Below, in pieces: positions 3,280-61,262 of a stretch of DNA of 64,000 bases; position 1 is the stretch's first letter; each line of letters opens with the position of its first letter. The translations under genes and the position numbers were made by a program. Under the pieces are notes generated by a model, which searched no databases, was not told the origin of the DNA, and worked only from the letters and a program-made list of their open reading frames with translations. Source of the stretch: a virus (lineage: Duplodnaviria; Caudoviricetes); the IMG/VR virus record IMGVR_UViG_3300001525_000313, positions 1 to 64,000 of that record; one strand, 5' to 3'.

Positions 3280-3900
3280 ATGCAAAAAGTAAATATTGTT
3301 GTAGGTCGTTTTCAACCATTTACACGCGGTCATTATGCTTGTATAAATGCAGCTAAAAAACAAGCTGGTCTTCCAACTGTCATTTGTATGATAAATACTA
3401 CAGAAGCAAAAATTGATAAACGCCACCCATTCACAATAGATATGCTAATCGATGTATATAGTGAAGTTTTTGATTCAGATGCTAATATACTTGATATAAT
3501 TCCTGTTGTAAATGCTAACATTGTAAAGATTGGTACTTTACTTCGTGAACACGGATATGAAGTTGCTGCTTGGACATGCGGCACAGATCGTTATCCAGTA
3601 TATAGCAATATGGCTGAAAAATATCATGAACAAGCTGGATTATCTGATGATTTTCAAATGATTGAAGTTCCACGAACTGATGAATATATTAGCGCTACAA
3701 AAGCTAGAGGTTGTTTAATACGTAATGATAAATCAGGATTTTTAAGTTTAGTTCCAGCAATGCCAAAAGATAAAGCTGATTATCTATTTGATACATTATA
3801 TACACAAATTAAAAAAGTATATGTTGATGAGTCATTCAATAGATCTTTAGCATTACAATTCCGTATAGCTAAATTAGAAAGACTATTAAATATAAAATAA
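3280..3900 (+). CDS. HIGH-superfamily nucleotidyltransferase (cytidylyltransferase/NMN adenylyltransferase-like) with C-terminal LxxRIAKLE tag
   Basis: GRFQPFTRGH, CGTDR and ISATKAR motifs; ends ...VDESFNRSLALQFRIAKLERLLNIK. Confidence 0.8.
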   Translation: MQKVNIVVGRFQPFTRGHYACINAAKKQAGLPTVICMINTTEAKIDKRHPFTIDMLIDVYSEVFDSDANILDIIPVVNANIVKIGTLLREHGYEVAAWTCGTDRYPVYSNMAEKYHEQAGLSDDFQMIEVPRTDEYISATKARGCLIRNDKSGFLSLVPAMPKDKADYLFDTLYTQIKKVYVDESFNRSLALQFRIAKLERLLNIK

Positions 3901-3934
3901 TAATTAACATATAATAAGTCGCTATACAAATAAA

Positions 3935-3965
3935 GCCGTATATACAATGTATATACGGCCTTTTT
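3935..3965. terminator. Bidirectional intrinsic terminator between convergent genes
   Basis: GCCGTATATACA-A-TGTATATACGGC with T tract on the right and A tract on the left. Confidence 0.75.
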
Positions 3966-3988
3966 AGTTTTTAATAATATTTGTAAAT

Positions 3989-4789
3989 TTAATATAAAAC
4001 AACTACATTTGCATTTTGCAATGATGTTCTTGTTTGATCTAACACATTATCAAGATTTACTTTGAGACCTTCCAGTATAATTGGATAATAATTTTTCTGC
4101 TCAAAGTTTTTACAATTTGATAAAATGATGTCTGCATTAGGATCACATTGTTCAAGCTGTCTAATTAAATCTTTTACTTTTAATGAATAATGCTTTTGTG
4201 GGAAATCATCAATTGAGTTTTCAATTTCAGATATATTAAATTCAGTGTCCCATCCTAGATACTTTTGATAATGAATTATATCATGTCCATAATATACTGC
4301 ACGTTTGAAATCAGAAAGATATTCAAGTTTGTCTTTCATACATGCAGGTGCTTCATCAAGTAAATAGAAATTTGTGAATGGATTTGATTTGCCAACAATT
4401 TCAATAAGCAATCTACCAAGATCACAATTTGTTGGACGATTGTCATTTTTGAATAAGCTTGCTGTGATTGTAATATTGAATGATCTGTTATTTTCAACCA
4501 TAAATGAAAATACAAATGAAACATTCTTTATTTTTTCTAAACCGCATTCACATTCACCTGCATAATACACATAACAAGTATTAGGCGTTGCAAGCCATGG
4601 AAACTTTTCACTAAGATTTACTGTTTGCCAAATGCCTACACCTACACTATTGTTGAAATCAGTATCTGTTGCATAAGGATATACTACATCACCATAAAAG
4701 CAATGGTAATCATTTATCTGATCTTTTGCATAGCGAACGATTTGACGCTCAGGCTCAGGCAAATTATACGTTGCAATTATTTTACACAT
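3989..4789 (-). CDS. Hypothetical protein with C-terminal 'KVKDLIRQLEQ' small domain
   Basis: 266-aa ORF, GAGG RBS; C-terminus resembles neighbouring ORF 4798..4980. Confidence 0.65.
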   Translation of the reverse strand: MCKIIATYNLPEPERQIVRYAKDQINDYHCFYGDVVYPYATDTDFNNSVGVGIWQTVNLSEKFPWLATPNTCYVYYAGECECGLEKIKNVSFVFSFMVENNRSFNITITASLFKNDNRPTNCDLGRLLIEIVGKSNPFTNFYLLDEAPACMKDKLEYLSDFKRAVYYGHDIIHYQKYLGWDTEFNISEIENSIDDFPQKHYSLKVKDLIRQLEQCDPNADIILSNCKNFEQKNYYPIILEGLKVNLDNVLDQTRTSLQNANVVVLY

Positions 4790-4797
4790 TAGAACCT

Positions 4798-4980
4798 CTA
4801 CATTGAATAATCATAAAGAATACTTATATATTGTTTATACACTTTATCATACTTTTCAAGTCTTACATCGTAAATACCTAATGATGTTTCAGGCAAACCA
4901 TCTGGCGTATATGTGTCTAAGAAAACATCAAGCTCATCATCAAATAAATTTAACTTCTCAATCAATTCTTTTACTTTCAT
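4798..4980 (-). CDS. Small hypothetical protein (MKVKELIEKL... type)
   Basis: 60-aa ORF; common phage small-protein N-terminus. Confidence 0.65.
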   Translation of the reverse strand: MKVKELIEKLNLFDDELDVFLDTYTPDGLPETSLGIYDVRLEKYDKVYKQYISILYDYSM

Positions 4981-5023
4981 CTATATTTGACCTTATATTG
5001 TAAACATAGCTTTAATATAAGAC

Positions 5024-5064
5024 AAAAAATCCTCATGTATATTATTAATAATATACATGAGGAT
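5024..5064 (-). terminator. 36-bp perfect palindrome, terminator-like
   Basis: ATCCTCATGTATATTATT|AATAATATACATGAGGAT at 5029-5064 preceded by A tract (U tract on minus strand). Confidence 0.7.
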
Positions 5065-5096
5065 CTGATAAGTAATAACTAATTATTAGTCATTTT

Positions 5097-5491
5097 TTAA
5101 TGATGACCAGGTTTTATGTCAAATGATATTGCTATATTTTTAAGAGCACCTAAATCATTCTTTACTTGTGTTATTTCTCTAATTTTTCTATTAACTGCAC
5201 CCGCAATCTCATTAAGTAAATCTTCAGCAGAGTCATAACCAGCCTTCTGCATTTTATAGAAAACATTAAGATCAGAATTATATGGGTACCCTTTATCTTT
5301 TTCATCAAGCATATACTTAAATAAGTTCAATGCAGTGGCTAATCTGACATGTGCCCGGCGTCGAGTGAACCATCTGCATTCATACTTTTTAGATTATCCA
5401 TAATTCTATCAATGTCTGATCTTGATATATCCTCATTCATAATGAGACTTTCTAACTTTGCAATTCGTTTTTCTAAACTTTTGTTTGTCAT
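5097..5491 (-). pseudogene. Tagged hypothetical protein (MTNKSLEKRIAKLESLIMNE...), one-base frameshift near 5367
   Basis: ATG at 5491 overlaps upstream TGA; frame stops near 5339, while the shifted frame (RRRAHVRLATALNLFKY) continues into ORF 5097..5330. Confidence 0.7.
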
Positions 5492-7095: not shown

Positions 7096-7113
7096 ACAAG
7101 CTCCAAATACAAA

Positions 7114-7192: not shown

Positions 7193-7477
7193 TTATTTGA
7201 ACATTTCACCAAGCACATCACATGCAGCTTTAAACTGTTTTAGAGCATTAACCTTTTCGGTATTATCATTCATAGTATCACTTTCAAGTGCCTCGATTAA
7301 ACCAGGTAATTCTTTAGAAGCTGCACTTATAATAGCTGGAAGATTTTTAATAATATTTGGTGCTATCTTTGCAAATATAGCTGGAAGAGCTTCATTTTTT
7401 GGTGTACGACGTTCGCTTACAATTCGCTCAAGTCGTGACAAACGCTCTTCTAATGTTGATTTATAATTTCTACGCAT
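7193..7477 (-). CDS. Tagged small helical hypothetical protein
   Basis: MRRNYKSTLEERLSRLERIVSERRTPKNE... Confidence 0.75.
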   Translation of the reverse strand: MRRNYKSTLEERLSRLERIVSERRTPKNEALPAIFAKIAPNIIKNLPAIISAASKELPGLIEALESDTMNDNTEKVNALKQFKAACDVLGEMFK

Positions 7478-7479
7478 CT

Positions 7480-8928
7480 TTATTCCCCATCATCAATTAG
7501 ATTAAAAAGAAATTTAGCTTTTGGTTTATCTTTTAAATAATCATATAATAATTTATTATTTATAGTAAAGTCTGTATTAGCTCCAGCTTCAATTAGCAAT
7601 TCTGCAAAATCAAAGTAACCTCTAATAATAGCGCTATATAATGGTGTATTACCAGACTCATCTGCTAAATCAACATCAGCACCATTTTCAATTAATAAGT
7701 CACCAATTATTACATCATTAAATTGTGACATAATTAATAGTGGTGGTTGTTTAGAATTAGCACCATTAACATCGGCACCAAGATCAATTAACTTTTGAAT
7801 GACATATCCATCAACAGATTGTAAACATGCATAAGTCAATGCAGTCATTTGATCTTCAATTATAATATCAGGATCAATGCCAGATTTAACAAGCTGTTCG
7901 ATTAAACGAGAATCACCATCATCAATTGCAGCTTGCATCTTTATAGCATCTATATTATCATCATTTATAACAGATTCAGGAATTTCATTTACTGTTGGCA
8001 ATATTACATTATTTTTAATATATACTTTTGCAAATGTATCACCTAAATCATTATCAGCTGAATCCCAAATAGATTGTATATGTTTATCTACATCCTGTAG
8101 TACACAATATTTTTCAGCGGCGTCATGCTTATTTATAAAGAAATAATACCCACCATCTAAGTTTTCAGATTCAATATAATTATTGAAATAATATTCACCT
8201 TTACCTTCAGATTCAGGGTATCTTCCAGTAATGCACCATTTGGTGTTTTTTCCATAAATAACAGCTGCATCATATGTTGTTATTTTATATACATTCCAAT
8301 CATCATCACTATAAATTAATTTTGCACCAGACTGTTTTGCTGATACACTGCGATCTCTATTTGATTTAAAGCCATCAATATAAGCTTTTACTTCATCAGG
8401 ATCTCTTCGTATAAGTTTATATATGTCTTTATAGTTTGAGTCTTTAATTTTATTTTTAATTAAAGTATATTTGTCATAATATTCATCACCAAGAAAATCA
8501 CGCAATACTTCTTGATCATGCTTACCTTCACATATTAGCTGCTCTAATTTTCTTAATCTATATTCAAGACCAAGCTTATGTCTATCATAATCAGCTGATC
8601 TTTTCATATATAAATTCATATCTTCTTTAATTGGATTTATGTCAACTCTAACATCATCGATATATAATGGATCATCATTTAATATACTAAAAAAGTCATC
8701 CTCACGAATATCACCATCATATTCAACAACAGCATCAAGATCAGATGCTTGTTTAGCTTGATTCCTTAATCTTGATCCATGCAACCTTATATCATTAAGT
8801 TTAATATCATCAGCTGAATGCCAACTATCCCAAATTCTATCAATGATGAAGTCATTAATTATTTTAATAACTTCATCATATGAATACTGCTCAAGACCCT
8901 GTATTTCCTTATTCATTTTACCAGCCAC
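7480..8928 (-). CDS. Multidomain protein: Pol-beta-type nucleotidyltransferase + internal tag + 'YGxxTxWC' domain + ankyrin repeats
   Basis: LHGSR...SDLDAVVEY (GS...DxD); LEYRLRKLEQLICE; AAVIYGKNTKWCITG; TALTYAC, LIDLGADVN, LIENGADVD, GNTPLYSA, LIEAGAN. Confidence 0.8.
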   Translation of the reverse strand: MAGKMNKEIQGLEQYSYDEVIKIINDFIIDRIWDSWHSADDIKLNDIRLHGSRLRNQAKQASDLDAVVEYDGDIREDDFFSILNDDPLYIDDVRVDINPIKEDMNLYMKRSADYDRHKLGLEYRLRKLEQLICEGKHDQEVLRDFLGDEYYDKYTLIKNKIKDSNYKDIYKLIRRDPDEVKAYIDGFKSNRDRSVSAKQSGAKLIYSDDDWNVYKITTYDAAVIYGKNTKWCITGRYPESEGKGEYYFNNYIESENLDGGYYFFINKHDAAEKYCVLQDVDKHIQSIWDSADNDLGDTFAKVYIKNNVILPTVNEIPESVINDDNIDAIKMQAAIDDGDSRLIEQLVKSGIDPDIIIEDQMTALTYACLQSVDGYVIQKLIDLGADVNGANSKQPPLLIMSQFNDVIIGDLLIENGADVDLADESGNTPLYSAIIRGYFDFAELLIEAGANTDFTINNKLLYDYLKDKPKAKFLFNLIDDGE

Positions 8929-9493
8929 TTGTCTCTTTCATTATATATGTAAAATCAAAGTTTACTGAATCGCCAGCGTCATAAATGTCTCCAGCATCAA
9001 TAGGTCTAAATACATTGCCCATCTCAAACTGTACTTCTTTATTTAAGTCAAACTGATTAAGATAATTGATAAGTTCTCCAACAGTTAATCTATCTTTTGA
9101 TTCATTCTTACGTTGTTTACATTTATGATTTATAGATTCATCAAAATCACCATCGCTATCAAAATAGCCTTTATCTTCCCAATCAAAGTAAATGGCCAAA
9201 TCACCAGCTACTTCAGAAGCTTCTTCAGCTATTACTGATTTTTTACTTAGAAGATAACCTCTACTAAAGTTATAATCATTTTCTATAAAATCGATAATAG
9301 TATTTATAGCCTTATCTTCTTTATGAATTATCATATCAAGAAGCTTACTTTGTCTTTCATGATTATTAATTCTGTCTATTAAGTCGTATACAGTATTATG
9401 AATAGCTTCAATAAGGCGTGATAATTCAGCATCTTCATTTGTAATAAACTTTTCTAATCTAGCAACTCTTGCTTCTAATTTATTATTATTCAT
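8918..9493 (-). CDS. Tagged hypothetical protein
   Basis: MNNNKLEARVARLEKFITNE...; C-terminal LTVGELINYLNQF domain. Confidence 0.75.
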   Translation of the reverse strand: MNNNKLEARVARLEKFITNEDAELSRLIEAIHNTVYDLIDRINNHERQSKLLDMIIHKEDKAINTIIDFIENDYNFSRGYLLSKKSVIAEEASEVAGDLAIYFDWEDKGYFDSDGDFDESINHKCKQRKNESKDRLTVGELINYLNQFDLNKEVQFEMGNVFRPIDAGDIYDAGDSVNFDFTYIMKETSGW

Positions 9494-9495
9494 TA

Positions 9496-10503
9496 TTATC
9501 TCTCAGCCTTCTTTGCATGCTTTTCAATATGATCTTTAAGCTTTGCGGGGAAATTCTTTAATTCATCAAGTGTAAATTTAGCAATGAAACCATCTTTTGA
9601 TTTCATTATATAATTTCCCTTACCGGCTTTCATAATGCCAAATGAATCTTTATTACCGTCTTTATAAACAATTTCAATAGACCATTTGGTACTTCCAACA
9701 TCGCCTTCGATAACTTCCATATCATACTTTGGAAATTCTTTTTTAATATCATAAGCGATTTCTTTTGCAAGATCAGAGTCATTATTCTTTTTATTATCTT
9801 CAATGTTCTCTTCAGCTTGCTCAATATGTTTTGCAATATGGTCAATTACTGATTGCGGTACATTTAATTCGCCATCTTCATCTGAGAATTTAACTTTAAG
9901 CTTATCTTTATCAGATGTTATAGTATAATCATGCTTATCATCATCTTGTTTAACAAGTGAAAGATCTTCTTGATTACCATCATTATACACTAAACGAAGA
10001 ATCCAAGCATCTTTTTTGTTCTTAAGATCAACATCAGAATCAATTTCTAAATCATCTTTATCAAACTTAGCTGCAATATCCATTGCTGCAACTTCACCAT
10101 CATGAGCTCGTGTATCTTCACGTTCATTTGTGACTTTTTTATTTATATTTAACTTCTCACAAATTCTATTCATTCGGCTCTCTAATGAGAGAATTCTAAG
10201 ATCTTGTTTATAATAATTCATAATAATACTAACTAATTTATTAACATCAATACAACTTAATGCAGCTAATGCTAATAACTGTAATGTATTATTTGGATCT
10301 AATATACATAAATCAGCTTTACATGTTTCAATATTATCTTCAATTTGTTGCTTAACTTGCTGTTCATAATCGTCAAGTGAGTTACAATTTGCTAGTACTG
10401 GCTTAAATGAATCAATATCCATTCTGTCCGCAAGTGCTAATGTTTGTAAATCACTCCACTGATCACAACATTCTGATACTTTTTTTGACATATTGTAACC
10501 CAC
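9496..10503 (-). CDS. Acidic hypothetical protein with degenerate internal tag and an internal duplicated domain
   Basis: LESRMNRICE...VTNE; repeats AMDIAAKF...WILRLVYNDGNQE...DHIAKH and AYDIKKEF...WSIEIVYKDGNKD...DHIEKH. Confidence 0.75.
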   Translation of the reverse strand: MGYNMSKKVSECCDQWSDLQTLALADRMDIDSFKPVLANCNSLDDYEQQVKQQIEDNIETCKADLCILDPNNTLQLLALAALSCIDVNKLVSIIMNYYKQDLRILSLESRMNRICEKLNINKKVTNEREDTRAHDGEVAAMDIAAKFDKDDLEIDSDVDLKNKKDAWILRLVYNDGNQEDLSLVKQDDDKHDYTITSDKDKLKVKFSDEDGELNVPQSVIDHIAKHIEQAEENIEDNKKNNDSDLAKEIAYDIKKEFPKYDMEVIEGDVGSTKWSIEIVYKDGNKDSFGIMKAGKGNYIMKSKDGFIAKFTLDELKNFPAKLKDHIEKHAKKAER

Positions 10504-10519: not shown

Positions 10520-11260
10520 TTAAATATATATTTTTGTAAAATGATCAATTAAAACATCAACAACGTCATTTATTGACTTTACAGTTTTAATCTTTTTATT
10601 ATTATATTCAAGATAAAACTTATCAGCATCTACAGCTATAATAGTGTATGATGTGGTATCATCATTCATAGTTAAATGTACAACTATAATGCCTTTGCCA
10701 ATATCTTTTTTATTTAATTCTATTTTGGTGTCTGATAAAATATCAGGAAGATTTTCATTAATTAAATCATGTATATATTCGCATTCACTTGCATTAAATG
10801 CAACTGATTCACTAATATACTTTTCATTTACATTATCTTCTGATATATCAGCTTTATTATTATCTAATTGTTCTAATATAAATGCAGCAACCTTATTTAA
10901 GTCTTTGTCTAAATTAAAAGACTTAAGCTTTGCAATAACATTTCTATTTGCATCTATACAAGTACAATACATTGTATTACGGTCGCCAGCTGTAGAAATT
11001 TCAAATGAAATTCCATTATGCTGATTACCCTTTGTGCTTAATATAATATAAAATGTATTGTCTGATCTATTATTCTTTGCATGTTCATTATATATAAGAT
11101 CCCTTCTTAATGAAATATACTTTGAAAATAAATCATCAATCCACGACTGTTCTTCTGAGTCTTTAGGTGCTGTAAACCCTAAAAACTCATTCTTACATGT
11201 AGCTCGACTTACTAATCTTTCAAGACGGGCTACACGTTCTTCAAGAGTGAGTTTTTTCAT
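10520..11260 (-). CDS. Tagged hypothetical protein
   Basis: MKKLTLEERVARLERLVSRATCKNE... Confidence 0.75.
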   Translation of the reverse strand: MKKLTLEERVARLERLVSRATCKNEFLGFTAPKDSEEQSWIDDLFSKYISLRRDLIYNEHAKNNRSDNTFYIILSTKGNQHNGISFEISTAGDRNTMYCTCIDANRNVIAKLKSFNLDKDLNKVAAFILEQLDNNKADISEDNVNEKYISESVAFNASECEYIHDLINENLPDILSDTKIELNKKDIGKGIIVVHLTMNDDTTSYTIIAVDADKFYLEYNNKKIKTVKSINDVVDVLIDHFTKIYI

Positions 11261-11269: not shown

Positions 11270-11867
11270 TTAACGTAGTTGGCGTTCAAGATAAAACTGT
11301 ACAAGTCCTAACGCTCTCATAACTTTATATACATAAGAATGGAGCTGCTCTCATCATTTTATCAGCTAAGAATGATACATTACGAGCACATTCCATTTGC
11401 ATATCATTTGCATTATCTAATTTTTCATTCTTAAATTTTTTCTCTAATTTTCTAATACGAGACTCTAATGAGGCTGTATAGCCATCATTATCTCTATAGC
11501 GATCTATCCAATCAGCTTTATTTTTATCGAATGCGGTCATTCCACTATCATAACCGTCTTCAATATATTCAAGTGCATCTTTTATTAATTTTTCAATATC
11601 GTATTCAACTTGATCACGATAGCCTTCCATATCTTCAGGATCAACGCCTTGTCCAACAGCTAAGTCAAGCAAGCACTCATCAGCATATTCACTAGCATCT
11701 GTATGTTTAAGTTCATATTTAATGTCTTTAATATCATTGTCATATTCATCTAAAAAATCACAACAATATTTATTAAACCAATTATATACATCGGCAGAAA
11801 TATCATAACCTTCATTCTTTAATACTTTTTCAAGTTTTGCAATTCTTGATTATAATTTCTTATCCAT
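11270..11867 (-). pseudogene. Doubly tagged acidic hypothetical protein; in-frame TAA at 11850-11852 and +1 frameshift near 11339
   Basis: MDKKL*SRIAKLEKVLKNE... in frame with ORF 11325..11672, which holds LESRIRKLEKKFKNE; shifted tail SYVYKVMRALGLVQFYLERQLR*; GAGG RBS. Confidence 0.7.
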
Positions 11868-16486: not shown

Positions 16487-18046
16487 TTGAGTATGCTAAT
16501 TATAAATGAGCAATATACACCAGTTCAAAATATAACTAATGAAGCTACTACAGTTGTAAAGTCTCTTAAAGAAGCTCTACAAGCTGCCTATTTAGATAAA
16601 ATAGCACCGGGTTATAAATTTGTTAAATCACTTAAAGCTGGTGAAGCACTACGTGCTGCATTAGGTAAATCAAATGATGAATTTTTATCAAATGTAGACA
16701 CATTATTAAAAGCTGTTGGTATTAATAAAAATTCATATACAGTTGAAGTTACAAGAGACTCAGCAATCAGTGGCAAATTTGATACAGCACAAATATCCAT
16801 TGTTAAAGCTGTTAGTAAATACAAATTAAATGTTGGTGATATTATATATATTACAAATCAGGCAATAGTAATTGCAGATAAACAATTAACACCACAGGGT
16901 TTAGGATTAACTGGTACATTTGAAAAAGGTAATCTGCTTTCAAGTCTTAAAGATGCACTTGAAAAAGCTGATAATCTTGATGTCAATTTAAAGGACAGCT
17001 TATTATTTATTGCAGAAAAGATTGATGATAATACAGAAAAAGATGTTATTGATCTTGATGATATGATAGTTCATGGAACTAAAAAAGTATTGCAATATGA
17101 TCTACCTGATAGTGTTAACTTAGAGTTATTTACAAAGTCACTTAATACAGTTGTTAAAGATTTCGGTGAAGTTATTGGTGGAATATTCCTACTCAATTAT
17201 TTAGACAATGCAAAAGCTGTAGCATATGATGATAGCTTTACATTACCGATGATTGATTATGAGATTGTATTTAATGATGAGAACAGATTAGGAATATCTG
17301 CAAAAGCTGAATCTGGTGGCCATGCACCATCAGCTGCAAAAGCATTTAAAGCATTACAGGCGTTTGTTACAAGTGGTGAAAAAATAAATGGTTTAACATT
17401 TAATCAGTTTGTTAATGAACATGTAAAATCAAAAAAAGCTGGCACAGCTGCAAAGAGACTTTTTGAGTTACTTACAGAATTATCAAATGCTTCAGTTAGA
17501 ACGCAATATATTTCACTAGTAAATGAATATTGCTCTAAAGACAGCTTTATTAAAAAGTTCTGTAAATTATTTGGATTAGACTCATTTATTGAACTTGCAG
17601 ATATTAATGATAAACAATTTGCAGATAAATTTGATGCTTTATGTTCAAGTGATAAAAACTTTACAGCAATGTTAAGTCTATTAGATGATATTGCATCTGG
17701 TACTGGACGATCTGCAAGACAAATACCTGATACTGCAGAAAAAGCAAAATCATTAAGTAAACAACAAAAAATTGGTTTGTTTATATATCCGCTAACTGCC
17801 TATATTGTTGATTATATTAATAAGACTTTCGGTCTTAATGATGACAGCTTAGACATAATCAGTGCATTTATACGTTTGGCATTTTCACATAAGCAAGTAT
17901 ATCTTGGAATTAAGCTAAGTACAAATAACTCTATTAAGCTAACATTCTCATTTGCTGCAATGGACACTGGCAATTGGAAATTCAAATGTCCGACAAGTGC
18001 AATTGAACCATGGAAGCAAGGCTTATCAATTGCAATGACACGTTAA
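16487..18046 (+). CDS. Hypothetical protein, probable PD-(D/E)XK nuclease fold
   Basis: KDFGEVIG...PMIDY...GISAKA; one of only two clear plus-strand genes. Confidence 0.55.
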   Translation: MSMLIINEQYTPVQNITNEATTVVKSLKEALQAAYLDKIAPGYKFVKSLKAGEALRAALGKSNDEFLSNVDTLLKAVGINKNSYTVEVTRDSAISGKFDTAQISIVKAVSKYKLNVGDIIYITNQAIVIADKQLTPQGLGLTGTFEKGNLLSSLKDALEKADNLDVNLKDSLLFIAEKIDDNTEKDVIDLDDMIVHGTKKVLQYDLPDSVNLELFTKSLNTVVKDFGEVIGGIFLLNYLDNAKAVAYDDSFTLPMIDYEIVFNDENRLGISAKAESGGHAPSAAKAFKALQAFVTSGEKINGLTFNQFVNEHVKSKKAGTAAKRLFELLTELSNASVRTQYISLVNEYCSKDSFIKKFCKLFGLDSFIELADINDKQFADKFDALCSSDKNFTAMLSLLDDIASGTGRSARQIPDTAEKAKSLSKQQKIGLFIYPLTAYIVDYINKTFGLNDDSLDIISAFIRLAFSHKQVYLGIKLSTNNSIKLTFSFAAMDTGNWKFKCPTSAIEPWKQGLSIAMTR

Positions 18047-18066
18047 TTAAATAATTAATAAAATTA

Positions 18067-18094
18067 AAACTGGTATACTTAAGTATACCAGTTT
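18067..18094. terminator. 28-bp perfect palindrome; bidirectional terminator
   Basis: AAACTGGTATACTT|AAGTATACCAGTTT between convergent genes. Confidence 0.75.
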
Positions 18095-18107
18095 ATTTAT
18101 TATGTAT

Positions 18108-18264
18108 TTATACATCACCTAAAATTAGGTCTGATAAATAATCTTGAAGCTCATACTCTGATACTTCTTTAGATACTGGAGCAAAATCAGGATTTGTTTG
18201 CCTCATTATATACTAATGATTCTAGTCGTGCAATACGACTTTCTAATAAATTATAATAGCTCAT
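18108..18264 (-). pseudogene. Tiny tagged protein (~51 aa) absent from the ORF track, +1 frameshift near 18200
   Basis: MSYYNLLESRIARLESLVYNEA then stop; dropping one A gives TNPDFAPVSKEVSEYELQDYLSDLILGDV*. Confidence 0.6.
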
Positions 18265-18282: not shown

Positions 18283-18579
18283 TTATTTGCGTAAAATAAG
18301 CTTCTCAAGTCTTTTAATACGTGACTCTAATTTAGTTCGTTTTAGTGATTCATCATAGTCTTCATCCTCATCATCTTCAGGATGAAGTATATCATCTAAG
18401 TCATATGCAACAACATCATTAACAGCTACATCTTCAGGAACTTGACCATAGAATACATCTTCAAGCATATCCCAAATAGCCTGGCGTTCACCATCAGATG
18501 CATTAATCCAATTTTCACGTGCAGGGCCCCACAAAAAGTCATCCATTTCATCAATTGTAAGTTCATGCTTTACGTACAT
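18283..18579 (-). CDS. Acidic hypothetical protein with C-terminal tag
   Basis: Probable start MYVKHEL after GGAGG; ends DYDESLKRTKLESRIKRLEKLILRK. Confidence 0.75.
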   Translation of the reverse strand: MYVKHELTIDEMDDFLWGPARENWINASDGERQAIWDMLEDVFYGQVPEDVAVNDVVAYDLDDILHPEDDEDEDYDESLKRTKLESRIKRLEKLILRK

Positions 18580-18595
18580 ATTATTACCTCCAAAA

Positions 18596-19369
18596 TTAAA
18601 ATCTATCGCGATATTTACCAATTACTTCAAATGTATATGGATTATCATTATCAATTATAACTTCTTCATCAAGATCTAATGATTTGTCATAATCATCTTC
18701 ATATGGATCAATACCAACTGAGTCAAGATATTCAGCATATGTTATAATTTGGCTTTCATCCATATCATCTGCATACTGAATATTATTCGCTTTGCATAAA
18801 TCCATAAGCTGATCAAACAATAAATCATGCTCATCTAATTCTTCATCAGATGCAGTCCATAAAGAATCAATTTCACCATTTTTCTTTCTAAGTAGACAAT
18901 ATTTTTTATTTCCATTAATATAGAAATAATATCCACCGTCTAAATCATTATCTTCTATATATTCATTAAAATAATGTTCACCTTGTTCTTCATGACCCTC
19001 ATAATGGCCTGTGATACACCACCTTGTACCTGAACCATATAGCTGTGCTGCTTTATATGTTGTAATTCTATAAACTTTCCAGTCATCTTTATTATATATT
19101 AATTTTGCACCATCTGATTTATTAGCACTACGGATGTCACGTTTTGATTGAATACCATCAATATAGCTCTTTACTTCATCAGGATCTTTTTTAATTAGCT
19201 GATAAATATCCTTATATTCAGGATCATTTATCTTATTCTTTATTGCATTGTATTTATTATAATAATCATCACCAAGAAAGTTTTACAGTAATTCTTGATC
19301 ATGTTTACTTTCTAATATATAGGTCTCAAGAATTCTAACGCGCCTTTCTAATGATTCATAATAATTCAT
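18596..19369 (-). pseudogene. Tagged paralogue of the central domain of 7480..8928; in-frame TAA at 19283-19285
   Basis: MNYYESLERRVRILETYILESKHDQELL*NFLGDDYYNKY...AAQLYGSGTRWCITG...LDGGYYFYIN, in frame with ORF 18596..18820. Confidence 0.8.
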
Positions 19370-19380: not shown

Positions 19381-20634
19381 TTACATCTTAAATCGTAAAC
19401 CAAGAGCTCTATTAAGTGCAGCAAATGATCCAGTACATTTCATTAAACGATCACCATATTTAAATACAATACCTTCAGTTGCATTTATCTGATTACCAAG
19501 TTCAGCTAATCGATTTAGGTGGAATGTTAGCTCTTTATTAAGTTCATCAGATCCACTAGTTTGTACATCAGCAACAATTGTTTTTAAATCATTACTTAAT
19601 GTGTCAATAACCTGTGATTCTGCCCCTGCATTTACAAGGCCATCACATAATTTTATAATAGCATTTCCAAACTTAGAGAAAAATACATCTAATGGTTTTG
19701 AGCATTCACTTACAACATATCTATAGTCGGTACTATTTAGTGTATTAAATTCATCTATATTATCTTTATATATCTTTTTCAGCTCAGTTAGTTTTGTAGA
19801 TTTATCATCATTAAACCAACGATTATATAAAGCTTTCATACCAGTTGGATTATTTGCAATCCATGGATATTTTTTATTGCATATCTTTTCAAATCGTGCC
19901 TGCTTATATTGCTCAATTGTACTATCATCAGAACAACCATCAGCAGCAAAAACGCTTTCAATTTTATTGATATATTCTGTTTGCAATGCAGCTGATTTTT
20001 CAGTTACCCTAATTACAACGCGTGGAGTTAGTTGTGCACCATCAATATTTGCACATGCTTTTTCAAGAACTTTAATTCCATCAGTGGTTACTTCATCTTT
20101 TTCCCACTGACTATTTTCATCTTTACGTTTATAAACCCATAAATTATGAAAGTCTACTTGTGCATTTGCATATACTAAAACATTTGTTTTACCAGTTGTA
20201 ATACATTCACAATTAGCAAGAATTTTTGTATTCTTATCAGGGTTGAAAAATGCTTTACCTATATTTTTAAATACTTTTTCAATAGTATCATAAGCTGATA
20301 AATATGTATTAGCAACATGTTCTCTACCAGCCCATTTAGCAGCAACATCGTCACGAACCATTCCGCCAGCTTCAGAATTAAGATCACCTTTATTACGAAC
20401 GAATACAACTTTGCCATCATTATTTAATGTACATTGTATATTCATTCCATCAAGCTTTTCAGTAATATCTTCAACTTTTCCTGAAAATAAATTTGTAATA
20501 ATATCTTTAATATCTTTAAGTGTTAAATCAGTGTAGTCATATATATGACTCATATGACCTGATGCACCGCCTTCATTCATCAGCTTTTCAAGTCTTCGTA
20601 TACGATATTCTAATACTAAATTACGTTTCACCAT
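19381..20634 (-). CDS. Tagged ATP-grasp/ligase-like nucleotidyltransferase (KxDG) protein
   Basis: LEYRIRRLEKLMNE|GGASGHMSH; ITEKLDGMN (motif I); EGIVF...LMKCTG (motifs IV/V-like). Confidence 0.6.
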   Translation of the reverse strand: MVKRNLVLEYRIRRLEKLMNEGGASGHMSHIYDYTDLTLKDIKDIITNLFSGKVEDITEKLDGMNIQCTLNNDGKVVFVRNKGDLNSEAGGMVRDDVAAKWAGREHVANTYLSAYDTIEKVFKNIGKAFFNPDKNTKILANCECITTGKTNVLVYANAQVDFHNLWVYKRKDENSQWEKDEVTTDGIKVLEKACANIDGAQLTPRVVIRVTEKSAALQTEYINKIESVFAADGCSDDSTIEQYKQARFEKICNKKYPWIANNPTGMKALYNRWFNDDKSTKLTELKKIYKDNIDEFNTLNSTDYRYVVSECSKPLDVFFSKFGNAIIKLCDGLVNAGAESQVIDTLSNDLKTIVADVQTSGSDELNKELTFHLNRLAELGNQINATEGIVFKYGDRLMKCTGSFAALNRALGLRFKM

Positions 20635-20662: not shown

Positions 20663-21136
20663 CTATTTCCAAAAAGTATATGTAATATCTTCTAACTGTA
20701 AAGTATTATTTTTATAAAAAATATGATATAGCCTCTGATTAGTTGTTCGTGAATTTAATGGTCCTAGTTCTTTAATATATGGTCCAACTTTAATATAGTC
20801 AAAGTATCTTCCATAATATTTTAGATCTAACTCAAATTCACCGCTATACCAACCAACAAGCAAATCATAGTTTTCTTTTATATAGTTTGCTAGCTGAACT
20901 AATCTCAGTTTGTCATTATCACCACCAAGAAATAATATACATGAAATCCCATAGTTCTTTTTTATAAGATCATCTATAATTTCTGTGGTAAGTTCATCAC
21001 CGCAATCAGTCTGTAAATATGAACTATGACATCCTGGACATCGATGTGGGCAGCATGATAAATTTATACCTAAACTAATTTCATCATTAAGTTCTGCAAA
21101 ACAAACTGAAGTGTCTTCTGGAATATATTTAATCAT
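20663..21136 (-). CDS. nrdG: Anaerobic ribonucleotide reductase activating protein (radical SAM)
   Basis: CPHRCPGCHS, FLGGD, DYIKVGPY, TTNQRLY; directly downstream of nrdD; probable start MIKY at 21136. Confidence 0.93.
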   Translation of the reverse strand: MIKYIPEDTSVCFAELNDEISLGINLSCCPHRCPGCHSSYLQTDCGDELTTEIIDDLIKKNYGISCILFLGGDNDKLRLVQLANYIKENYDLLVGWYSGEFELDLKYYGRYFDYIKVGPYIKELGPLNSRTTNQRLYHIFYKNNTLQLEDITYTFWK

Positions 21137-21193
21137 ATGTTTGCTAGTTAATAAATATGGCATCAATAATTGATGCCATACTAATTTATTTAA

Positions 21194-22157
21194 TTATTTC
21201 GCTCTATACCTGTTATATTTGATATATTCATCAGACTCATTTGGCTCGTGTGAATCAAGATGATTAAATACTCTTGACTCAAACTCTTTCTTTCTACTAT
21301 CATTCCAATTTTTAATAGCAGTTAAATAGCCAATAATACGAGTATACATTTGGAGATTCTTGCTATGACATTCAGGACATTCATCAACTGGTATATTTAC
21401 TATTTTACCGCATTCTCTACATTCTGTCATTGGTATGTTAAATGTTAAATAACTACAACCAACTTTAGCAGAATATTCAAGAAGCTTTTTATATTGATTT
21501 GGTGATAAATGAGAGTCTAAATTGATATGTGCAGCTGAACCACCATCTAAATAATCGCCAATATAATCTCTGCCATGCATTTTAATTTTGTCTAATACAG
21601 AAGTCATATTGTCATTTGGTTTAAATATATAACTTGCATAAAGGTTTGTATCTTCTGGTACCCAAAATCCATCATTTTTATCCCAATTATAATTCTTTGA
21701 TGCAAGAGACTCTGCTGGAACTTGTTCAGTATTAAACATTAACTGATGTAAGCTTGTTTTATCTCTGTGAAGTTCATTTTGCTCTTTAAAGAATGAGAAT
21801 ATTTCCTGACAGAATTTTGAATACTTATCATTTACACTACACTTAATACCAAGAAATTCAGCTGCTTGATTTAATCCATTAAGACCAAGTGTTAAATATT
21901 GTTTATTTAAATCAATAAATCCTGCTCGATATGCTGGTAGTAAGTTTGCATCATACATATCCCATAATAATTCATTATAGGCATGATGATATTTATAAAC
22001 TCTATCTGTTAACTTTACAAGATATTTCTTTAATGAATTATAACATGAATCATCAAATGCAAAGCTATCTACATCACGCTTATCGCATTCTTTTCTATAC
22101 CATAGCTGAATTAAACGATTTAGATTAAATGTAATTACTGATTTACTTCCTGTTTGA
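21194..22157 (-). CDS. nrdD: NrdD C-terminal polypeptide, exon 2
   Basis: (I)QTGSKSVITFNLNRLIQ..., EQVPAESLA, LDGGSAAH, zinc ribbon CRECG/CPECH, glycyl-radical motif TRIIGYL. Confidence 0.92.
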
Positions 22158-35043: not shown

Positions 35044-35931
35044 TTACCTATTGCTTATTCTAGGTATAAATTTAAGATCACCTGACATGTATTTATCGAA
35101 ATATTGCTGCAGTATTTCTTTTACAGTTGGATCATTTCTACTAATATCAGGATTAAAATTAAAAAATGTATTTAAGTCTTTTGAACCACAAAATTGGCCA
35201 CGTACAAAAATCTTAACACAAAATTCTTCAAAAGACTTTGTTATATAATGTCTTATATAAATTTTATCATATACAGGCGTATCAAGATCTGTTGAAAAAT
35301 CAGTTTTACACCAAGTGTAAACTTTACTTTTTGATACTGATGGAATATGCATATTACATCTTATAATTTTGCTATCCCATTTGTGCATATTAAACATCAT
35401 TTTACAAGATGCTTGGCTAGCCATTCGTTTACCAGTATAAAGTTGACATGTAGTATTATAATTTGTTTGTACATCGCTATCTGGTTTTAGTATATGACCA
35501 TTTGCATTGTAATTAAGCCATTGTAAAATAACAATATTGTAATTGTTATACTGTTTAAGTACATCAGATATATTTGAATCTTTATTTTCTAATGTAATAA
35601 ACTCATCTGAATCAATATATGCAACCCAATCTAAATTATCAGTTTTCTTAATATAATCAAGACATCGTTTAAAGAATTCTATTTGTAAACCATGTATATC
35701 TGTATGATCTTTTTTAATATTAATAACATTATTACGATCAAAAACATTATATACTGATAAAATACTTTTACATTCTACATTTGCATATTTATCACAAATG
35801 TCTTTGTGTGATAAGCTCCCAATATCTTCAAAAACATAAATCTTATCGATACCTATACTTAGGTGGTATTTAATCCATTCATCTAAGTATAGGTGTTCAT
35901 TTTTTATAATCGTTAAAATACCAGTTTTCAT
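35044..35931 (-). CDS. Glycosyltransferase, GT-A fold (family 2/92-like)
   Basis: IKNEHLYLDEWIKYHLSIG, WVAYIDSDEFI, HYITKSFEEF. Confidence 0.82.
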   Translation of the reverse strand: MKTGILTIIKNEHLYLDEWIKYHLSIGIDKIYVFEDIGSLSHKDICDKYANVECKSILSVYNVFDRNNVINIKKDHTDIHGLQIEFFKRCLDYIKKTDNLDWVAYIDSDEFITLENKDSNISDVLKQYNNYNIVILQWLNYNANGHILKPDSDVQTNYNTTCQLYTGKRMASQASCKMMFNMHKWDSKIIRCNMHIPSVSKSKVYTWCKTDFSTDLDTPVYDKIYIRHYITKSFEEFCVKIFVRGQFCGSKDLNTFFNFNPDISRNDPTVKEILQQYFDKYMSGDLKFIPRISNR

Positions 35932-57990: not shown

Positions 57991-58078
57991 AAATTAACAC
58001 TTAATTATATAGATATAGTTTAAATATAAATTGAATAAAATAAAATGCTATAACTATTATAGTTATTTTATATATACA

Positions 58079-59287: not shown

Positions 59288-59386
59288 TATATTACCTCGT
59301 ATGTTTATGTAACATTGAACTAATATAATATTGATATATAAATTTACCCTAGTAATACTACTAGGGCATTATATTGATAAATATAT

Positions 59387-60904
59387 TTACTTTTTCCAAA
59401 GAAAATTCTTCTTTAATTGTTTAGTATCTGAATAGTCAATGTCAAGATAATTACACTCACAATTATCAAGAGCACCAGTTGATTCTTCACCAAGTAATAG
59501 CTTAATTAAACCAATACGTTTTTTAAGCAGTGAAGTTCTATATGTATCAATTGTATCTTTTGCAGATATAAAATAAATGTTTTGTGCACTATAAGTTGAA
59601 TCCATTCTACAAACACGACCTGCTAACTGAATTACACGACCAATTGAAAATGGTGCATTTATAACTACAATATTATTTGCTCGTTGAAGATTGCGTGACT
59701 GTGATGCAGCTTGTGAGCATAAAACAATTTCTTTAAGACCAAGATTAGCCTCAATCTTAGCACGTTGATCTTCTTTTTCTGCACCAGTAAGCTTATATAT
59801 TGATTTAAAACCAATTGAATCTTTATGCTGTAATAATATTTGTTCAGCTAATTCAAGTGACTCAGTATATTCAAAATATATTAAAGCTGATTCATTACGA
59901 GACATAATATCATGTATTGTCTGCATCATCAACTTCATCTTATTAGAAATAATATCTGGAGATGGTTCAGTACTACCAAAATCAACTACGCGTTGTAAAT
60001 CATGTAGTCTAGCACCAAAATCTTTTGCATCTTCTGCAGGATTGTTTAAATTGTCATCTTTTTTCTTTGATTTCTTTTTTACTTTTTCTGGATGATAAAG
60101 TATATCAAAAAATCCCTTTGCTGCCATTGCATATAATTTTTCGCATTCTTTATCAAGATCACAATCAAGGAAATTAAAGTTTACATTATAATGTACACAA
60201 CCCTTAATAATAAGCTTATCAAGAATGCCATTAAGCTCTTCCATATTTTGGAAACCTGTAATCTCTATAATTTTTCTTTGAATTACAGCACCAAAACGAT
60301 TTTTCATTCTTATTACACGTTCCTGTGTAATACAATAATGAGCTCTGAATTTAAACCATGATTGAAATACTCTTGGATATACAAAGTGTAAAACATTAAA
60401 TAAACCTTCAATGTCATTCAATAATGGAGTTGCAGTCATTGCAATAATTTTCTTACAATAACATCTAACTTCCCATGCAGCACTAGCGAATACAGATTTT
60501 GGATTTTGTAATGAATGTGCTTCATCAATAACAAGATGGCATGTATTTGTACTAGCAAGAGCGATTAAATCTTCAATATATTTATTTACAACTGAATTCT
60601 CTACAATAATATATCGTCTACTTGACAAATCTTCATATTTAAATGTTTTTCCAGCGGTAACAAATATGTATTCACTTGCTGGAATTTCCATCTTTGTAGA
60701 TAATTCTTTTTTAAATGCAGCCCTTGCCGATTTTGGAATAAATAGAATACATTTATCATTATTATCTTTTAATAGATCATATTTAACATGCCACAAACAT
60801 GTTATCGTTTTCCCTGTGCCCGGAGACAAAGCAAGAATACATGCAGACATTTCCTGCATTTTCTTTATTGATTCTTTTTGTAGCTCAGATAACTCAAAAT
60901 TCAT
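59387..60904 (-). CDS. SNF2-family (SF2) helicase/ATPase
   Basis: PGTGKT, VIDEAH, MTATPLLN, RNLQRAN, QLAGRVCR; probable start MNFEL. Confidence 0.88.
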   Translation of the reverse strand: MNFELSELQKESIKKMQEMSACILALSPGTGKTITCLWHVKYDLLKDNNDKCILFIPKSARAAFKKELSTKMEIPASEYIFVTAGKTFKYEDLSSRRYIIVENSVVNKYIEDLIALASTNTCHLVIDEAHSLQNPKSVFASAAWEVRCYCKKIIAMTATPLLNDIEGLFNVLHFVYPRVFQSWFKFRAHYCITQERVIRMKNRFGAVIQRKIIEITGFQNMEELNGILDKLIIKGCVHYNVNFNFLDCDLDKECEKLYAMAAKGFFDILYHPEKVKKKSKKKDDNLNNPAEDAKDFGARLHDLQRVVDFGSTEPSPDIISNKMKLMMQTIHDIMSRNESALIYFEYTESLELAEQILLQHKDSIGFKSIYKLTGAEKEDQRAKIEANLGLKEIVLCSQAASQSRNLQRANNIVVINAPFSIGRVIQLAGRVCRMDSTYSAQNIYFISAKDTIDTYRTSLLKKRIGLIKLLLGEESTGALDNCECNYLDIDYSDTKQLKKNFLWKK

Positions 60905-60923
60905 AAGTAAACCTATATAAATA

Positions 60924-60965
60924 AAACCAAGTAACAAATATTAGTATACATTGCAACTTGGTTTT
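60924..60965 (-). terminator. Intergenic hairpin
   Basis: AAAACCAAGT...ACTTGGTTTT. Confidence 0.55.
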
Positions 60966-60986
60966 ATTAAAGCTAAAATATTCTAA

Positions 60987-61262
60987 TTAGAATGTTTTAC
61001 CATTTTTCCTGTCTTCAAGAATTGAATCTAGTCTGTCATAAGCATTTTTAGAAAATTCACTCTGACAAACAGTTAGTGCCATGTCAACAGCTCTATAATC
61101 ATTAATTTCATTATAAGCTAAAGTCTTACATAAATCGTTTACAGCATCTCTTATAGTATCAACAGTTCTATAAACAGCAGATGCTACAGGATCAAGTGCT
61201 TCATTCTTGCGAGAAATTAGCTTTTCAAGTCTAGCAATTCTAGCTTCTAATTTCTTATCCAT
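60987..61262 (-). CDS. Tagged small hypothetical protein
   Basis: MDKKLEARIARLEKLISRKNE...; GAGG RBS. Confidence 0.78.
   Translation of the reverse strand: MDKKLEARIARLEKLISRKNEALDPVASAVYRTVDTIRDAVNDLCKTLAYNEINDYRAVDMALTVCQSEFSKNAYDRLDSILEDRKNGKTF

What the first reader, a model, noticed from the sequence alone, without database searches (positions are those of the whole stretch)
3840..61262. Shared 'LExRIxxLE...(N)E' peptide tag on 13 accessory proteins: candidate capsid-targeting and protease-release system
Seen: 14 copies of L-E-x-R-[IVLM]-x-[RK]-L-E in genes at 3280 (LQFRIAKLE, C-term), 5491 (LEKRIAKLESLIMNE), 7477 (LEERLSRLE...KNE), 8928 (internal LEYRLRKLEQLICE), 9493 (LEARVARLEKFITNE), 10503 (internal, degenerate LESRMNRICE...TNE), 11260 (LEERVARLE...KNE), 11867 (L*SRIAKLEKVLKNE and LESRIRKLEKKFKNE), 18264 (LESRIARLESLVYNE), 18579 (C-term LESRIKRLE), 19369 (LERRVRILETYILE), 20634 (LEYRIRRLEKLMNE) and 61262 (LEARIARLEKLISRKNE). 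Apart from one paralogous pair the attached bodies are unrelated. Codons vary synonymously (TTA/CTT, AGA/CGT/CGA), so conservation is at protein level. I did not see the tag in tail, nrd, tdk, dnaX, helicase or exonuclease genes. Known: T4 internal proteins carry a short N-terminal capsid-targeting sequence removed by prohead protease gp21 after Glu. Inference: this amphipathic two-heptad helix docks cargo on the prohead scaffold/core and the Glu site releases it, defining a portable packaging label and a set of proteins injected with the DNA.
Basis: partly seen in the sequence, partly recalled or inferred. Interest (0 to 1): 0.9.

Follow-up and report, generated by a model that had tools for sequence, protein, structure and literature searches.

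The report
Coiled-coil head-loading tag on phage proteins
An uncultured T4-like phage puts one short helical peptide, usually followed by the likely cutting site of its head protease, on about 17 otherwise unrelated proteins and on its own head-assembly proteins; it most likely marks proteins to be loaded into the capsid and clipped there, as phage T4 does with a different tag, but no experiment has shown this.

Summary
All 14 listed copies of L-E-x-R-[IVLM]-x-[RK]-L-E are in the window, and 3 more lie in the rest of the 103-kb contig. About 0.0005 are expected by chance. Codons differ between copies, and only one pair of tagged bodies is related.

The tag is family-wide: 58 copies in six related phage contigs (41 N-terminal, 10 C-terminal, 7 internal). 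N-E follows 28 of the 41 N-terminal tags.

The phage has a T4 gp21-type (S77/S80) head protease, a class that cuts after Glu. Its capsid protein keeps K-N-E|S at the usual propeptide boundary. A tag-like helix is near-invariant in the protease's C-terminal extension (117 of 120 homologues). A true tag ends a small acidic head protein (120 of 120) and the conserved protein encoded after the capsid gene.

In the RNA-ligase-like cargo family, the coiled-coil leader and a 10-residue T4-CTS-like leader replace each other at the same Glu|Gly-Gly junction.

Best reading (about 0.6): a coiled-coil version of T4's capsid-targeting sequence that copies the core's own assembly helix. Packaging, cutting and injection are untested. 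This scan reported the same tag before on sister genomes. It is a new variant of a known kind.

The parts
3853..3897 (+). C-terminal tag (L-Q variant, followed by a basic tail) of the cytidylyltransferase-like protein 3280-3900
   Evidence: 17.7 bits. Pfam PF01467 and PHROG cytidyltransferase hits. The tag is conserved in the G002 orthologue.
5432..5476 (-). N-terminal tag ending M-N-E on the 50-aa ORF 5339-5491
   Evidence: 21.8 bits.
7391..7453 (-). N-terminal tag with a basic linker ending K-N-E on the 94-aa ORF 7193-7477
   Evidence: In G003 this body is fused behind a nucleotidyltransferase domain through a tag.
8527..8568 (-). Internal tag ending I-C-E at the domain junction of 7480-8928 (nucleotidyltransferase, tag, W-C-I-T-G domain, ankyrin repeats)
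   Evidence: The downstream domain recurs as the separate N-tagged gene at 19369.
9434..9478 (-). N-terminal tag ending T-N-E on the 191-aa ORF 8918-9493
   Evidence: 17.9 bits.
10123..10185 (-). Internal degenerate tag (ends I-C) followed by T-N-E, in the 335-aa ORF 9496-10503
   Evidence: 17.3 bits. The body is 68-76% identical in G002 and G003.
11186..11245 (-). N-terminal tag with a linker ending K-N-E on the 246-aa ORF 10520-11260
   Evidence: Orthologues in G001, G003 and G004 keep the tag and a Glu|Phe junction.
11424..11468 (-). Second (internal, near C-terminal) tag ending K-N-E of the gene 11325-11867
   Evidence: 19.6 bits. In the G002 orthologue this tag is C-terminal.
11811..11855 (-). 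N-terminal tag of gene 11325-11867 with TAA (11852-11850) in place of the Glu codon: a nonsense mutation or a sequencing error
   Evidence: The G002 orthologue reads Glu here. TAA is the main stop codon, ending 77 of 104 ORFs.
18202..18246 (-). Tag ending Y-N-E in a 26-residue tag-only ORF (18184-18264); the body is missing
   Evidence: 23.1 bits, the best score. Absent at this place in the close relative G005.
18286..18330 (-). C-terminal tag with a basic tail on the acidic 112-aa ORF 18283-18621
   Evidence: Conserved in the G005 orthologue.
19310..19351 (-). N-terminal tag ending I-L-E on the W-C-I-T-G-domain gene 18596-19369, which is broken by an in-frame TAA at 19285-19283
   Evidence: G002 orthologues read Asn at the TAA position.
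20572..20613 (-). N-terminal tag ending M-N-E on the RNA-ligase-like protein 19381-20634; the body starts G-G-A-S-G-H-M
   Evidence: 832 homologues, some with PF09414.
61200..61250 (-). N-terminal tag with a linker ending K-N-E on the 91-aa ORF 60987-61262
   Evidence: 21.2 bits. Orthologues in G001 and G003 keep the tag and K-N-E.

Best explanation
The tag is a coiled-coil counterpart of phage T4's capsid-targeting sequence.

The phage belongs to a T4-like family and encodes a gp21-type head protease; solved members of that class cut after Glu. Three conserved head proteins carry the same helix of about 12 residues, L(d)-E(e)-x-R(g)-h(a)-x-x-L(d)-E(e). This contains the R-h-x-x-h-E motif that favours parallel three-stranded coiled coils, and a basic patch follows it. 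The three proteins are the protease's C-terminal extension, a small acidic protein, and the protein encoded after the capsid gene.

Inferred mechanism: these helices bundle when the prohead core assembles. Accessory proteins that carry the same helix join the bundles and are enclosed. The protease then cuts after the Glu that follows the tag (mostly x-N-E, often K-N-E, as at the capsid protein's own propeptide boundary) and frees the body. N-tagged bodies would lose the tag. C-tagged proteins, and the upstream halves of fused proteins, would keep it.

The cargo would then enter the host with the DNA. It includes an RNA-ligase-like enzyme, nucleotidyltransferases, ankyrin-repeat proteins and small unknown proteins.

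Shown here: the motif, where it occurs, its conservation, and the protease family. Inferred: docking, cutting, packaging and injection.
For: 1. The motif is real and under selection at protein level.

2. It is family-wide: 58 tags in six related contigs, 41 of them N-terminal and 4-10 residues after Met. N-E follows within 16 residues in 28 of those 41. The background N-E rate is 0.47% per residue, about 7% per such stretch.

3. The protease is of the T4 gp21 type: PHROG 207 E 2.8e-35, Pfam S77 43 bits and S80 29 bits, T4 gp21 structure 5JBL. T4, phiKZ and SPN3US proteases all cut after Glu (PMC5694885).

4. The capsid protein has K-N-E|S at residues 52-55 in all four relatives. In 81 of 101 representative capsid homologues, an x-x-E|[A/S/T] site lies 28-50 residues before the conserved V-Q-P anchor. 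P3 is L, M or I in 55 of them, as in T4.

5. The protease extension holds F-E-S-R-I-R-x-[LI]-D-x-E in 117 of 120 homologues, with invariant columns. AlphaFold models it as helix 201-217.

6. The 153-aa acidic head-module protein has the tag at its C-terminus in 120 of 120 homologues and K-N-E|S near its N-terminus in 115 of 120. The 316-aa protein encoded after the capsid gene keeps a C-terminal tag and a mid-chain K-N-E in four genomes.

7. A small tagged ORF follows the portal gene, the position of T4 genes 67 and 68, in five of six genomes.

8. In the ligase-like cargo family the body always starts right after a Glu. The clade at 60% identity or more has coiled-coil leaders, some doubled. 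The clade at about 50% identity has a 10-13-residue leader, M-K-x-L-Y-x-Y-[IL]-x-E, the size and shape of T4's CTS.

9. AlphaFold puts the tag in a separate helix (residues 3-17) and N-E in the loop before a confident body.

10. T4 precedents: the CTS loads unrelated proteins, Alt is trimmed at both ends, and gp21's own propeptides are suspected of targeting it (PMC9026906, PMC5694885, PMC3012670).

11. No replication or tail protein is tagged. Tagged bodies in relatives are ankyrin-repeat proteins or unknowns.
Against:
- Ten of 58 tags are C-terminal with no cut site after them. Thirteen of 41 N-terminal tags lack N-E, although another Glu follows.
- The helix is only about 1.7 heptads long. 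AlphaFold confidence for it is 55-70, so it probably cannot form a coiled coil on its own.
- The Glu before the ligase body is kept even in forms with almost no leader (P0079, P0116). It may therefore belong to the enzyme rather than mark a cut.
- The C-tagged cytidylyltransferase and the N-tagged ligase occur as one fused protein elsewhere (P0091, G010). That also fits a simple pairing handle.
- The tagged genes sit among nucleotide-metabolism genes. Only the 21-kb cluster has the candidate late-promoter motif upstream.
- The same 9-mer heads 27 or more proteins in a 312-kb phage. In that phage and three other large tag-bearing contigs the S77, S80, gp23-type capsid and portal profiles found nothing.
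- The alignment of the capsid N-terminus to T4 gp23 is weak (2.7 bits).
Confidence: 0.62

Rival explanations
1. The tag is a general association handle. The short R-h-x-x-h-E helices let tagged proteins pair or trimerise with each other in the cytoplasm, for example the C-tagged cytidylyltransferase with the N-tagged ligase. This would build enzyme complexes with no link to the capsid. The N-E would be only a helix cap or linker.
For: - The motif matches the published trimerisation motif (PMC3653964).
- The cytidylyltransferase and the ligase-like enzyme are one polypeptide in P0091 and in G010.
- Tags occur at C-termini and at domain junctions.
- Some proteins carry a tag at each end.
Against: - It does not explain why the trailing Glu motif matches the conserved capsid-protein boundary.
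- It does not explain why the helix is near-invariant in the head protease and in two head-module proteins.
- It does not explain why a 10-residue leader, too short for a coiled coil, replaces it at the same junction in the ligase family.
- It does not explain why N-E follows N-terminal tags but not C-terminal ones.
Confidence: 0.2
2. The tag is an address for some other destination or partner. Candidates are a trimeric neck or whisker fibre, the membrane-bound assembly site, or a chaperone. The head proteins would carry it for their own assembly only.
For: - The 153-aa tagged protein lies next to the head-tail adaptor gene rather than before the capsid gene.
- The same core is used by large phages with no detectable S77 or S80 protease.
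Against: - No fibre or membrane protein with a matching helix was found.
- The cargo includes cytoplasmic-type enzymes.
- The link to the protease and to the Glu site would be left unexplained.
Confidence: 0.1
3. The tag is a leftover junction helix. It would mark places where genes were fused and split by recombination, with no function of its own.
For: - Module shuffling occurs at tags. G003 joins the nucleotidyltransferase domain to the body of gene 7477 through a tag, and G000 has the W-C-I-T-G domain both fused and free.
- A tag-only remnant ORF exists at 18184-18264.
Against: - The DNA of the tags is only 61% identical, with shared runs of at most 14 nt. That is too little for homologous recombination.
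- The protein motif is under strong purifying selection across genomes that are 50-70% identical.
Confidence: 0.05

Closest known systems
Phage T4 capsid-targeting sequence (CTS) of IPI, IPII, IPIII and Alt, removed by prohead protease gp21 (Mullaney and Black 1996; reviews PMC9026906, PMC3012670, PMC5694885)
   Same: A short portable leader sits on otherwise unrelated, fast-changing proteins. It ends at a Glu, the residue after which this class of protease cuts, and the same kind of site lies in the capsid protein and core proteins. The protease family is the same (S77). A small core-type gene follows the portal gene. T4 Alt is also trimmed at its C-terminus.
   Different: There is no sequence likeness to the T4 leader. 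The tag is a 12-22-residue amphipathic coiled-coil helix with an R-h-x-x-h-E motif and a basic linker, not 10 residues. It occurs at N-termini, C-termini and domain junctions. It is also carried by the conserved protease and head proteins. The cut motif is x-N-E rather than L/I-x-E. There are 10-17 tagged proteins per contig, against a handful in T4.
Propeptide processing in giant phages phiKZ, 201phi2-1 and SPN3US (S80 proteases gp175 and gp245; PMC5694885, PMC10052503)
   Same: The head protease is Glu-specific. Many head and ejection proteins are processed. The protease trims its own C-terminus. Propeptides carry several cut sites.
   Different: Those phages have no single shared leader, and their cut motif is S/A/G-x-E. 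Here one leader is reused on many proteins.
R-h-x-x-h-E trimerisation motif of short parallel coiled coils (coronin-1, ccbeta, GCN4 variants; Kammerer 2005; PMC3653964)
   Same: The tag core R-[IVLM]-x-x-[LI]-E fits the motif, with Arg at g, hydrophobic residues at a and d, and Glu at e.
   Different: The known examples are self-contained oligomerisation domains of 17 residues or more. Here there is one motif in about 12 residues, placed as a terminal tag on many proteins. Its oligomeric state is untested.
Cargo-loading peptides of encapsulins and the scaffold-based loading of P22 or of P1 Dar proteins (PMC9024508, PMC12810830)
   Same: Short terminal peptides, at either end of the protein, direct cargo into an HK97-fold shell.
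   Different: Those peptides bind the shell or a dedicated adaptor and are not cut off. There is no sequence or motif likeness. This comparison is from my own knowledge plus the abstracts listed.

Membership tests
T4-type capsid-targeting / prohead-protease propeptide system | The genome encodes a gp21-family (S77) prohead protease next to a gp23-type capsid gene | tested here: met
   PHROG 207 E 2.8e-35 and PHROG 138 E 8e-33. PF03420 at 43-44 bits, above the 27-bit cut-off. PDB 5JBL and T4 gp23 chains match.
T4-type capsid-targeting / prohead-protease propeptide system | One short leader is shared by otherwise unrelated proteins | tested here: met
   Seventeen copies in this contig and 58 in six relatives. 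Only one pair of bodies is paralogous.
T4-type capsid-targeting / prohead-protease propeptide system | The leader ends in the protease's cut motif, which also marks the capsid-protein propeptide boundary | tested here: met
   N-E follows 28 of 41 N-terminal tags, and the rest have another Glu. The capsid protein has K-N-E|S conserved in four genomes, at the position of x-x-E|[A/S/T] in 81 of 101 capsid homologues. The cut itself is inferred.
T4-type capsid-targeting / prohead-protease propeptide system | The leader is enough to load a foreign protein into the head and is removed there | not testable with these tools
   This needs a cultured family member, or a prohead assembly system, plus proteomics.
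T4-type capsid-targeting / prohead-protease propeptide system | Sequence likeness to the T4 IPIII leader (10 residues, targeting residues 4 and 7, processing residues 8 and 10) | tested here: not met
   The tag is longer and has a different pattern. The short leader of the 50%-identity ligase clade does resemble T4's in length and pattern. So the tag is an analogue of the T4 leader, not a homologue.
R-h-x-x-h-E parallel trimeric coiled coil | Arg(g)-h(a)-x-x-h(d)-Glu(e) within a heptad register | tested here: met
   R-[IVLM]-x-x-[LI]-E is present in 15 of the 16 strong copies (one search list). The motif definition is from PMC3653964.
R-h-x-x-h-E parallel trimeric coiled coil | Forms a stable three-stranded coiled coil | not testable with these tools
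   Only monomer folding was available. The tag helices have pLDDT 55-70. The segment is about 1.7 heptads long, probably too short to stand alone.

The most novel reading that the evidence does not exclude
The R-h-x-x-h-E helix is the self-assembly code of the prohead core itself, shared by the protease, the small acidic core protein and the protein encoded after the capsid gene. Accessory proteins get into the capsid by copying that code and joining mixed three-helix bundles. Because the same 9-residue core heads dozens of proteins in unrelated 200-300-kb phages that lack a detectable S77 or S80 protease, it may be a general virion-loading code that recurs across lineages and can be read from sequence. 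If so, the injected protein set of uncultured large phages could be listed from sequence alone, and the helix could serve as a portable packaging tag.
Probability: 0.3. Interest if true: 0.78.

Novelty: new variant of a known kind. Interest (0 to 1): 0.6.

Why it matters
If the reading holds, the proteins this phage family injects with its DNA can be read directly from the genome. They include RNA-ligase-like and nucleotidyl-transfer enzymes, ankyrin-repeat proteins and many unknowns. These are prime candidates for first-minute counter-defence factors of uncultured gut and rumen phages.

It would also show how a cargo label can arise: by copying the coiled-coil helix that the head core uses to assemble. 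That is a concrete, testable docking mechanism, which T4's own CTS still lacks.

Finally, it offers a short peptide that could be tried as a packaging tag.

Tried and rejected
- Alternative genetic code for the in-frame TAA codons: rejected. TAA ends 77 of 104 ORFs, and orthologues read Glu or Asn at those positions.
- DNA repeat or recombination cassette: rejected on codon diversity.
- Cultured relatives: megablast of 18 kb of the window against 50,697 phage records found nothing, and the sheath protein found only distant hits. A tagged protein of the second lineage also found nothing.
- Naming the cargo: Pfam, PHROGs and PDB sequence searches named only the cytidylyltransferase, a weak nucleotidyltransferase, the ankyrin repeats and PF09414 (on ligase homologues). 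The ESM Atlas gave no usable lead for the W-C-I-T-G domain.
- Placing the second tag-bearing lineage (G006-G009): searches with the capsid protein and with the S77, S80, PHROG 207, 138 and 213 profiles all came back empty. Ten of its tagged proteins have no PHROG hit. Its head genes remain unidentified.
- Promoters: inspection of upstream regions was not decisive.

Full report
**Context**

The window is the first 64 kb of a single 102,922-bp contig with 30% G+C. CheckV rates the contig about 48% complete.

Almost all genes are on the minus strand. PHROGs and Pfam identify the following:
- a gp23-type major capsid protein at contig 70017-71513;
- a head-maturation protease at 71506-72531;
- a portal at 87282-88808;
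- sheath, tube and tape-measure proteins, a UvsX-like recombinase and helicases.

The capsid protein matches T4 gp23 chains. The protease matches T4 gp21 (PDB 5JBL), Pfam S77 (43 bits) and S80 (29 bits). No cultured phage is close. TAA is the usual stop codon.

**The observation**

The rest of the contig adds three more:
- an N-terminal copy on a 72-aa ORF directly after the portal gene (87240);
- a C-terminal copy on the 316-aa ORF directly after the capsid gene (68967);
- a C-terminal copy with Ala at position 7 on a 153-aa acidic ORF (67262).

A profile of the tags separates 16 hits (11-23 bits) from everything else (8.3 bits or less). The strict pattern occurs 10 times in the called ORFs. 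Composition predicts 0.0005, and 2000 shuffles gave a mean of 0.001.

The copies differ freely at synonymous positions and share no run longer than 14 nt. With tags masked, only one pair of bodies is related.

Two tagged genes carry in-frame TAA codons where orthologues read Glu or Asn. One 'gene' is a tag-only remnant.

**The tag across the family**

A portal search found relatives in IMG/VR, and I read five contigs in full. Together with this contig they hold 58 tags: 41 N-terminal (4-10 residues after Met), 10 C-terminal and 7 internal. Some of the internal ones are second copies of a doubled N-terminal tag.

After the 9-residue core come two or three hydrophobic residues and usually a basic stretch. 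In N-terminal and junction copies N-E comes next, often K-N-E. N-E occurs within 16 residues in 28 of the 41 N-terminal tags. The background rate is 0.47% per residue. The other N-terminal tags have F-E, Y-E or D-E. C-terminal tags stop in the basic stretch.

**Link to the head machinery**

1. The capsid protein reads K-N-E|S at residues 52-55 in all four relatives that hold the gene. I anchored 101 representative capsid homologues on the conserved V-Q-P segment. In 81 of them an x-x-E|[A/S/T] site lies 28-50 residues upstream, with L, M or I at P3 in 55. This is the T4-type rule, and several read N-E. So K-N-E|S sits where this family matures its capsid protein. The direct alignment to T4 at this point is weak.

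2. The protease has a 170-residue C-terminal extension. In it, F-E-S-R-I-R-x-[LI]-D-x-E is present in 117 of 120 homologues down to 46% identity. Seven of those columns are invariant in a 56-sequence alignment. AlphaFold models the protease domain well. It models the extension as four helices, and the motif is helix 201-217.

3. The 153-aa acidic protein has the tag, followed by T-E and an Arg-rich tail, in 120 of 120 homologues. It has K-N-E|S near the N-terminus in 115 of them.

4. The 316-aa protein keeps its C-terminal tag and a mid-chain K-N-E in four genomes.

5. A small tagged ORF follows the portal gene in five of six genomes. That is where T4 has core genes 67 and 68.

**Comparative test on one cargo**

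The tagged 417-aa protein has 832 homologues, some annotated PF09414 (RNA ligase).

In all 119 unfused proteins among the 120 best, the conserved body begins directly after a Glu with G-G-[A/Q/V]-[A/S]-G-[H/N]-M; the fused P0091 has the same Glu|Gly-Gly junction internally. What lies before that Glu changes by clade:
- The clade at 60% identity or more carries the coiled-coil tag, doubled in about six cases.
- The clade at about 50% identity carries a leader of 10-13 residues, M-K-x-L-Y-x-Y-[IL]-x-E.

The short leader has the length, the hydrophobic pattern and the [IL]-x-E ending of T4's CTS. In T4, residues 4 and 7 target and residues 8 and 10 govern cutting (PMC9026906). In contig G011 the gene beside the ligase starts with the same short leader.

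A leader too short for a coiled coil can thus replace the tag at the same junction. I count this as the best evidence that the tag acts as a targeting propeptide and not merely as an oligomerisation domain.

The caveat is that the Glu is also kept in two forms with almost no leader. It may therefore be part of the enzyme.

**Nature of the helix**

The core fits the published trimerisation motif Arg(g)-h(a)-x-x-h(d)-Glu(e) of short parallel three-stranded coiled coils (PMC3653964).

It spans only about 1.7 heptads. In a naturally double-tagged 147-aa protein of G002, AlphaFold gives these elements:
- an N-terminal tag helix (residues 3-17, pLDDT 62-67);
- N-E in the following loop;
- a confident helical body (pLDDT about 90);
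- a C-terminal helix (pLDDT 55-70).

I infer that the tag needs partners, and that the conserved head proteins provide them.

**Module shuffling and fusions**

- The window protein 7480-8928 reads nucleotidyltransferase, tag, W-C-I-T-G domain, ankyrin repeats. The W-C-I-T-G domain also exists as the separate N-tagged gene at 19369.
- G003 joins the nucleotidyltransferase domain through a tag to the body of gene 7477.
- The C-tagged cytidylyltransferase (3280-3900) and the ligase are a single chain in P0091 and in G010. The junction there again ends in Glu|Gly-Gly.

These facts fit polyprotein-like cutting. They fit a pairing handle equally well, which is why I keep that rival at 0.2.

**Wider spread**

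Most matches lie 4-12 residues after a Met on unrelated proteins of large contigs with 38-47% G+C. There the tag has a longer N-terminal part and is followed by [K/R]-[E/Q]-[A/S] rather than N-E.

One complete 312-kb genome has 27 or more such proteins. The capsid, portal, S77 and S80 profiles found nothing in it or in three similar large contigs.

I could not place this lineage. It shows either convergence on the same helix or a use that does not depend on this protease.

**What the scan found before**

Earlier notes e1-5665078 and e1-5932908 describe the same tag on sister genomes from rumen and gut, and reach the same reading. I reached the protease, scaffold-like-protein and cut-site results independently before reading them, and my results agree. 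The scan has also found many other shared-leader systems in large phages.

**Verdict**

The capsid-targeting reading is the best supported, at about 0.6. It is refined as follows: the tag is the head core's own coiled-coil helix, reused on cargo. Cutting, packaging and injection remain inferences.

Noticed in passing
window 1-75: The contig begins with 5.4 perfect copies of a 14-bp G+C-rich unit in a 30% G+C genome. This could be a genome end, a repeat region or an assembly artefact.
   Followed up: partly
window 11850-11852 and 19283-19285: In-frame TAA codons lie inside two tagged genes. Orthologues in G002 read Glu and Asn at these positions. They are nonsense mutations or sequencing errors, which suggests fast turnover of cargo genes.
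   Followed up: yes
window 16487-18264: A 519-aa plus-strand ORF with no family hit sits in an otherwise minus-strand region, next to the tag-only remnant ORF 18184-18264. It may be an insertion that removed the body of a tagged gene.
   Followed up: no
contig positions 21225, 34327, 40819, 53302, 54770, 58016, 59337 (window) and 67134-88873 (beyond the window): A-T-A-T-C-[A/T]-A lies 48-67 nt before 12 gene starts, nearly all structural, against about 1.4 expected. One such site precedes ORF 20663-21166, which heads the tagged cluster containing the ligase gene.
   Followed up: partly
L168-L183 (G006, 312 kb, terminal repeats); also G007-G009: A second, unplaced lineage of large phages starts 27 or more unrelated proteins with a 22-residue leader holding the same 9-residue core. 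The S77, S80, gp23-type capsid and portal profiles found nothing in these contigs.
   Followed up: partly
L186-L191 (G010, 115 kb): Another phage contig starts more than 25 small ORFs with its own leader, M-K-H-I-x-E-S-I-I-G-R-K-G. It also encodes a 617-aa cytidylyltransferase-ligase fusion.
   Followed up: no
window 35044-35931: This 295-aa ORF in the tail or baseplate region starts with a 12-residue hydrophobic leader ending K-N-E. It may be a short T4-like leader or chance.
   Followed up: no
contig 86045-86989 (L002:3123-4067): The conserved 314-aa protein after the portal gene and the small tagged ORF has a SWIM zinc-finger motif (21 bits).
   Followed up: no
contig 66693-67067 (L001:3693-4067): The 124-aa ORF next to the 153-aa tagged protein gives a weak hit (E 7.5e-4) to the PHROG family of P1 Hdf-like antirestriction head proteins.
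   Followed up: no
L018:2863-6436 and L022:11123-12823 (G002): Three of the four largest tagged proteins of the near-complete relative are ankyrin-repeat proteins, like the window's 7480-8928.
   Followed up: partly
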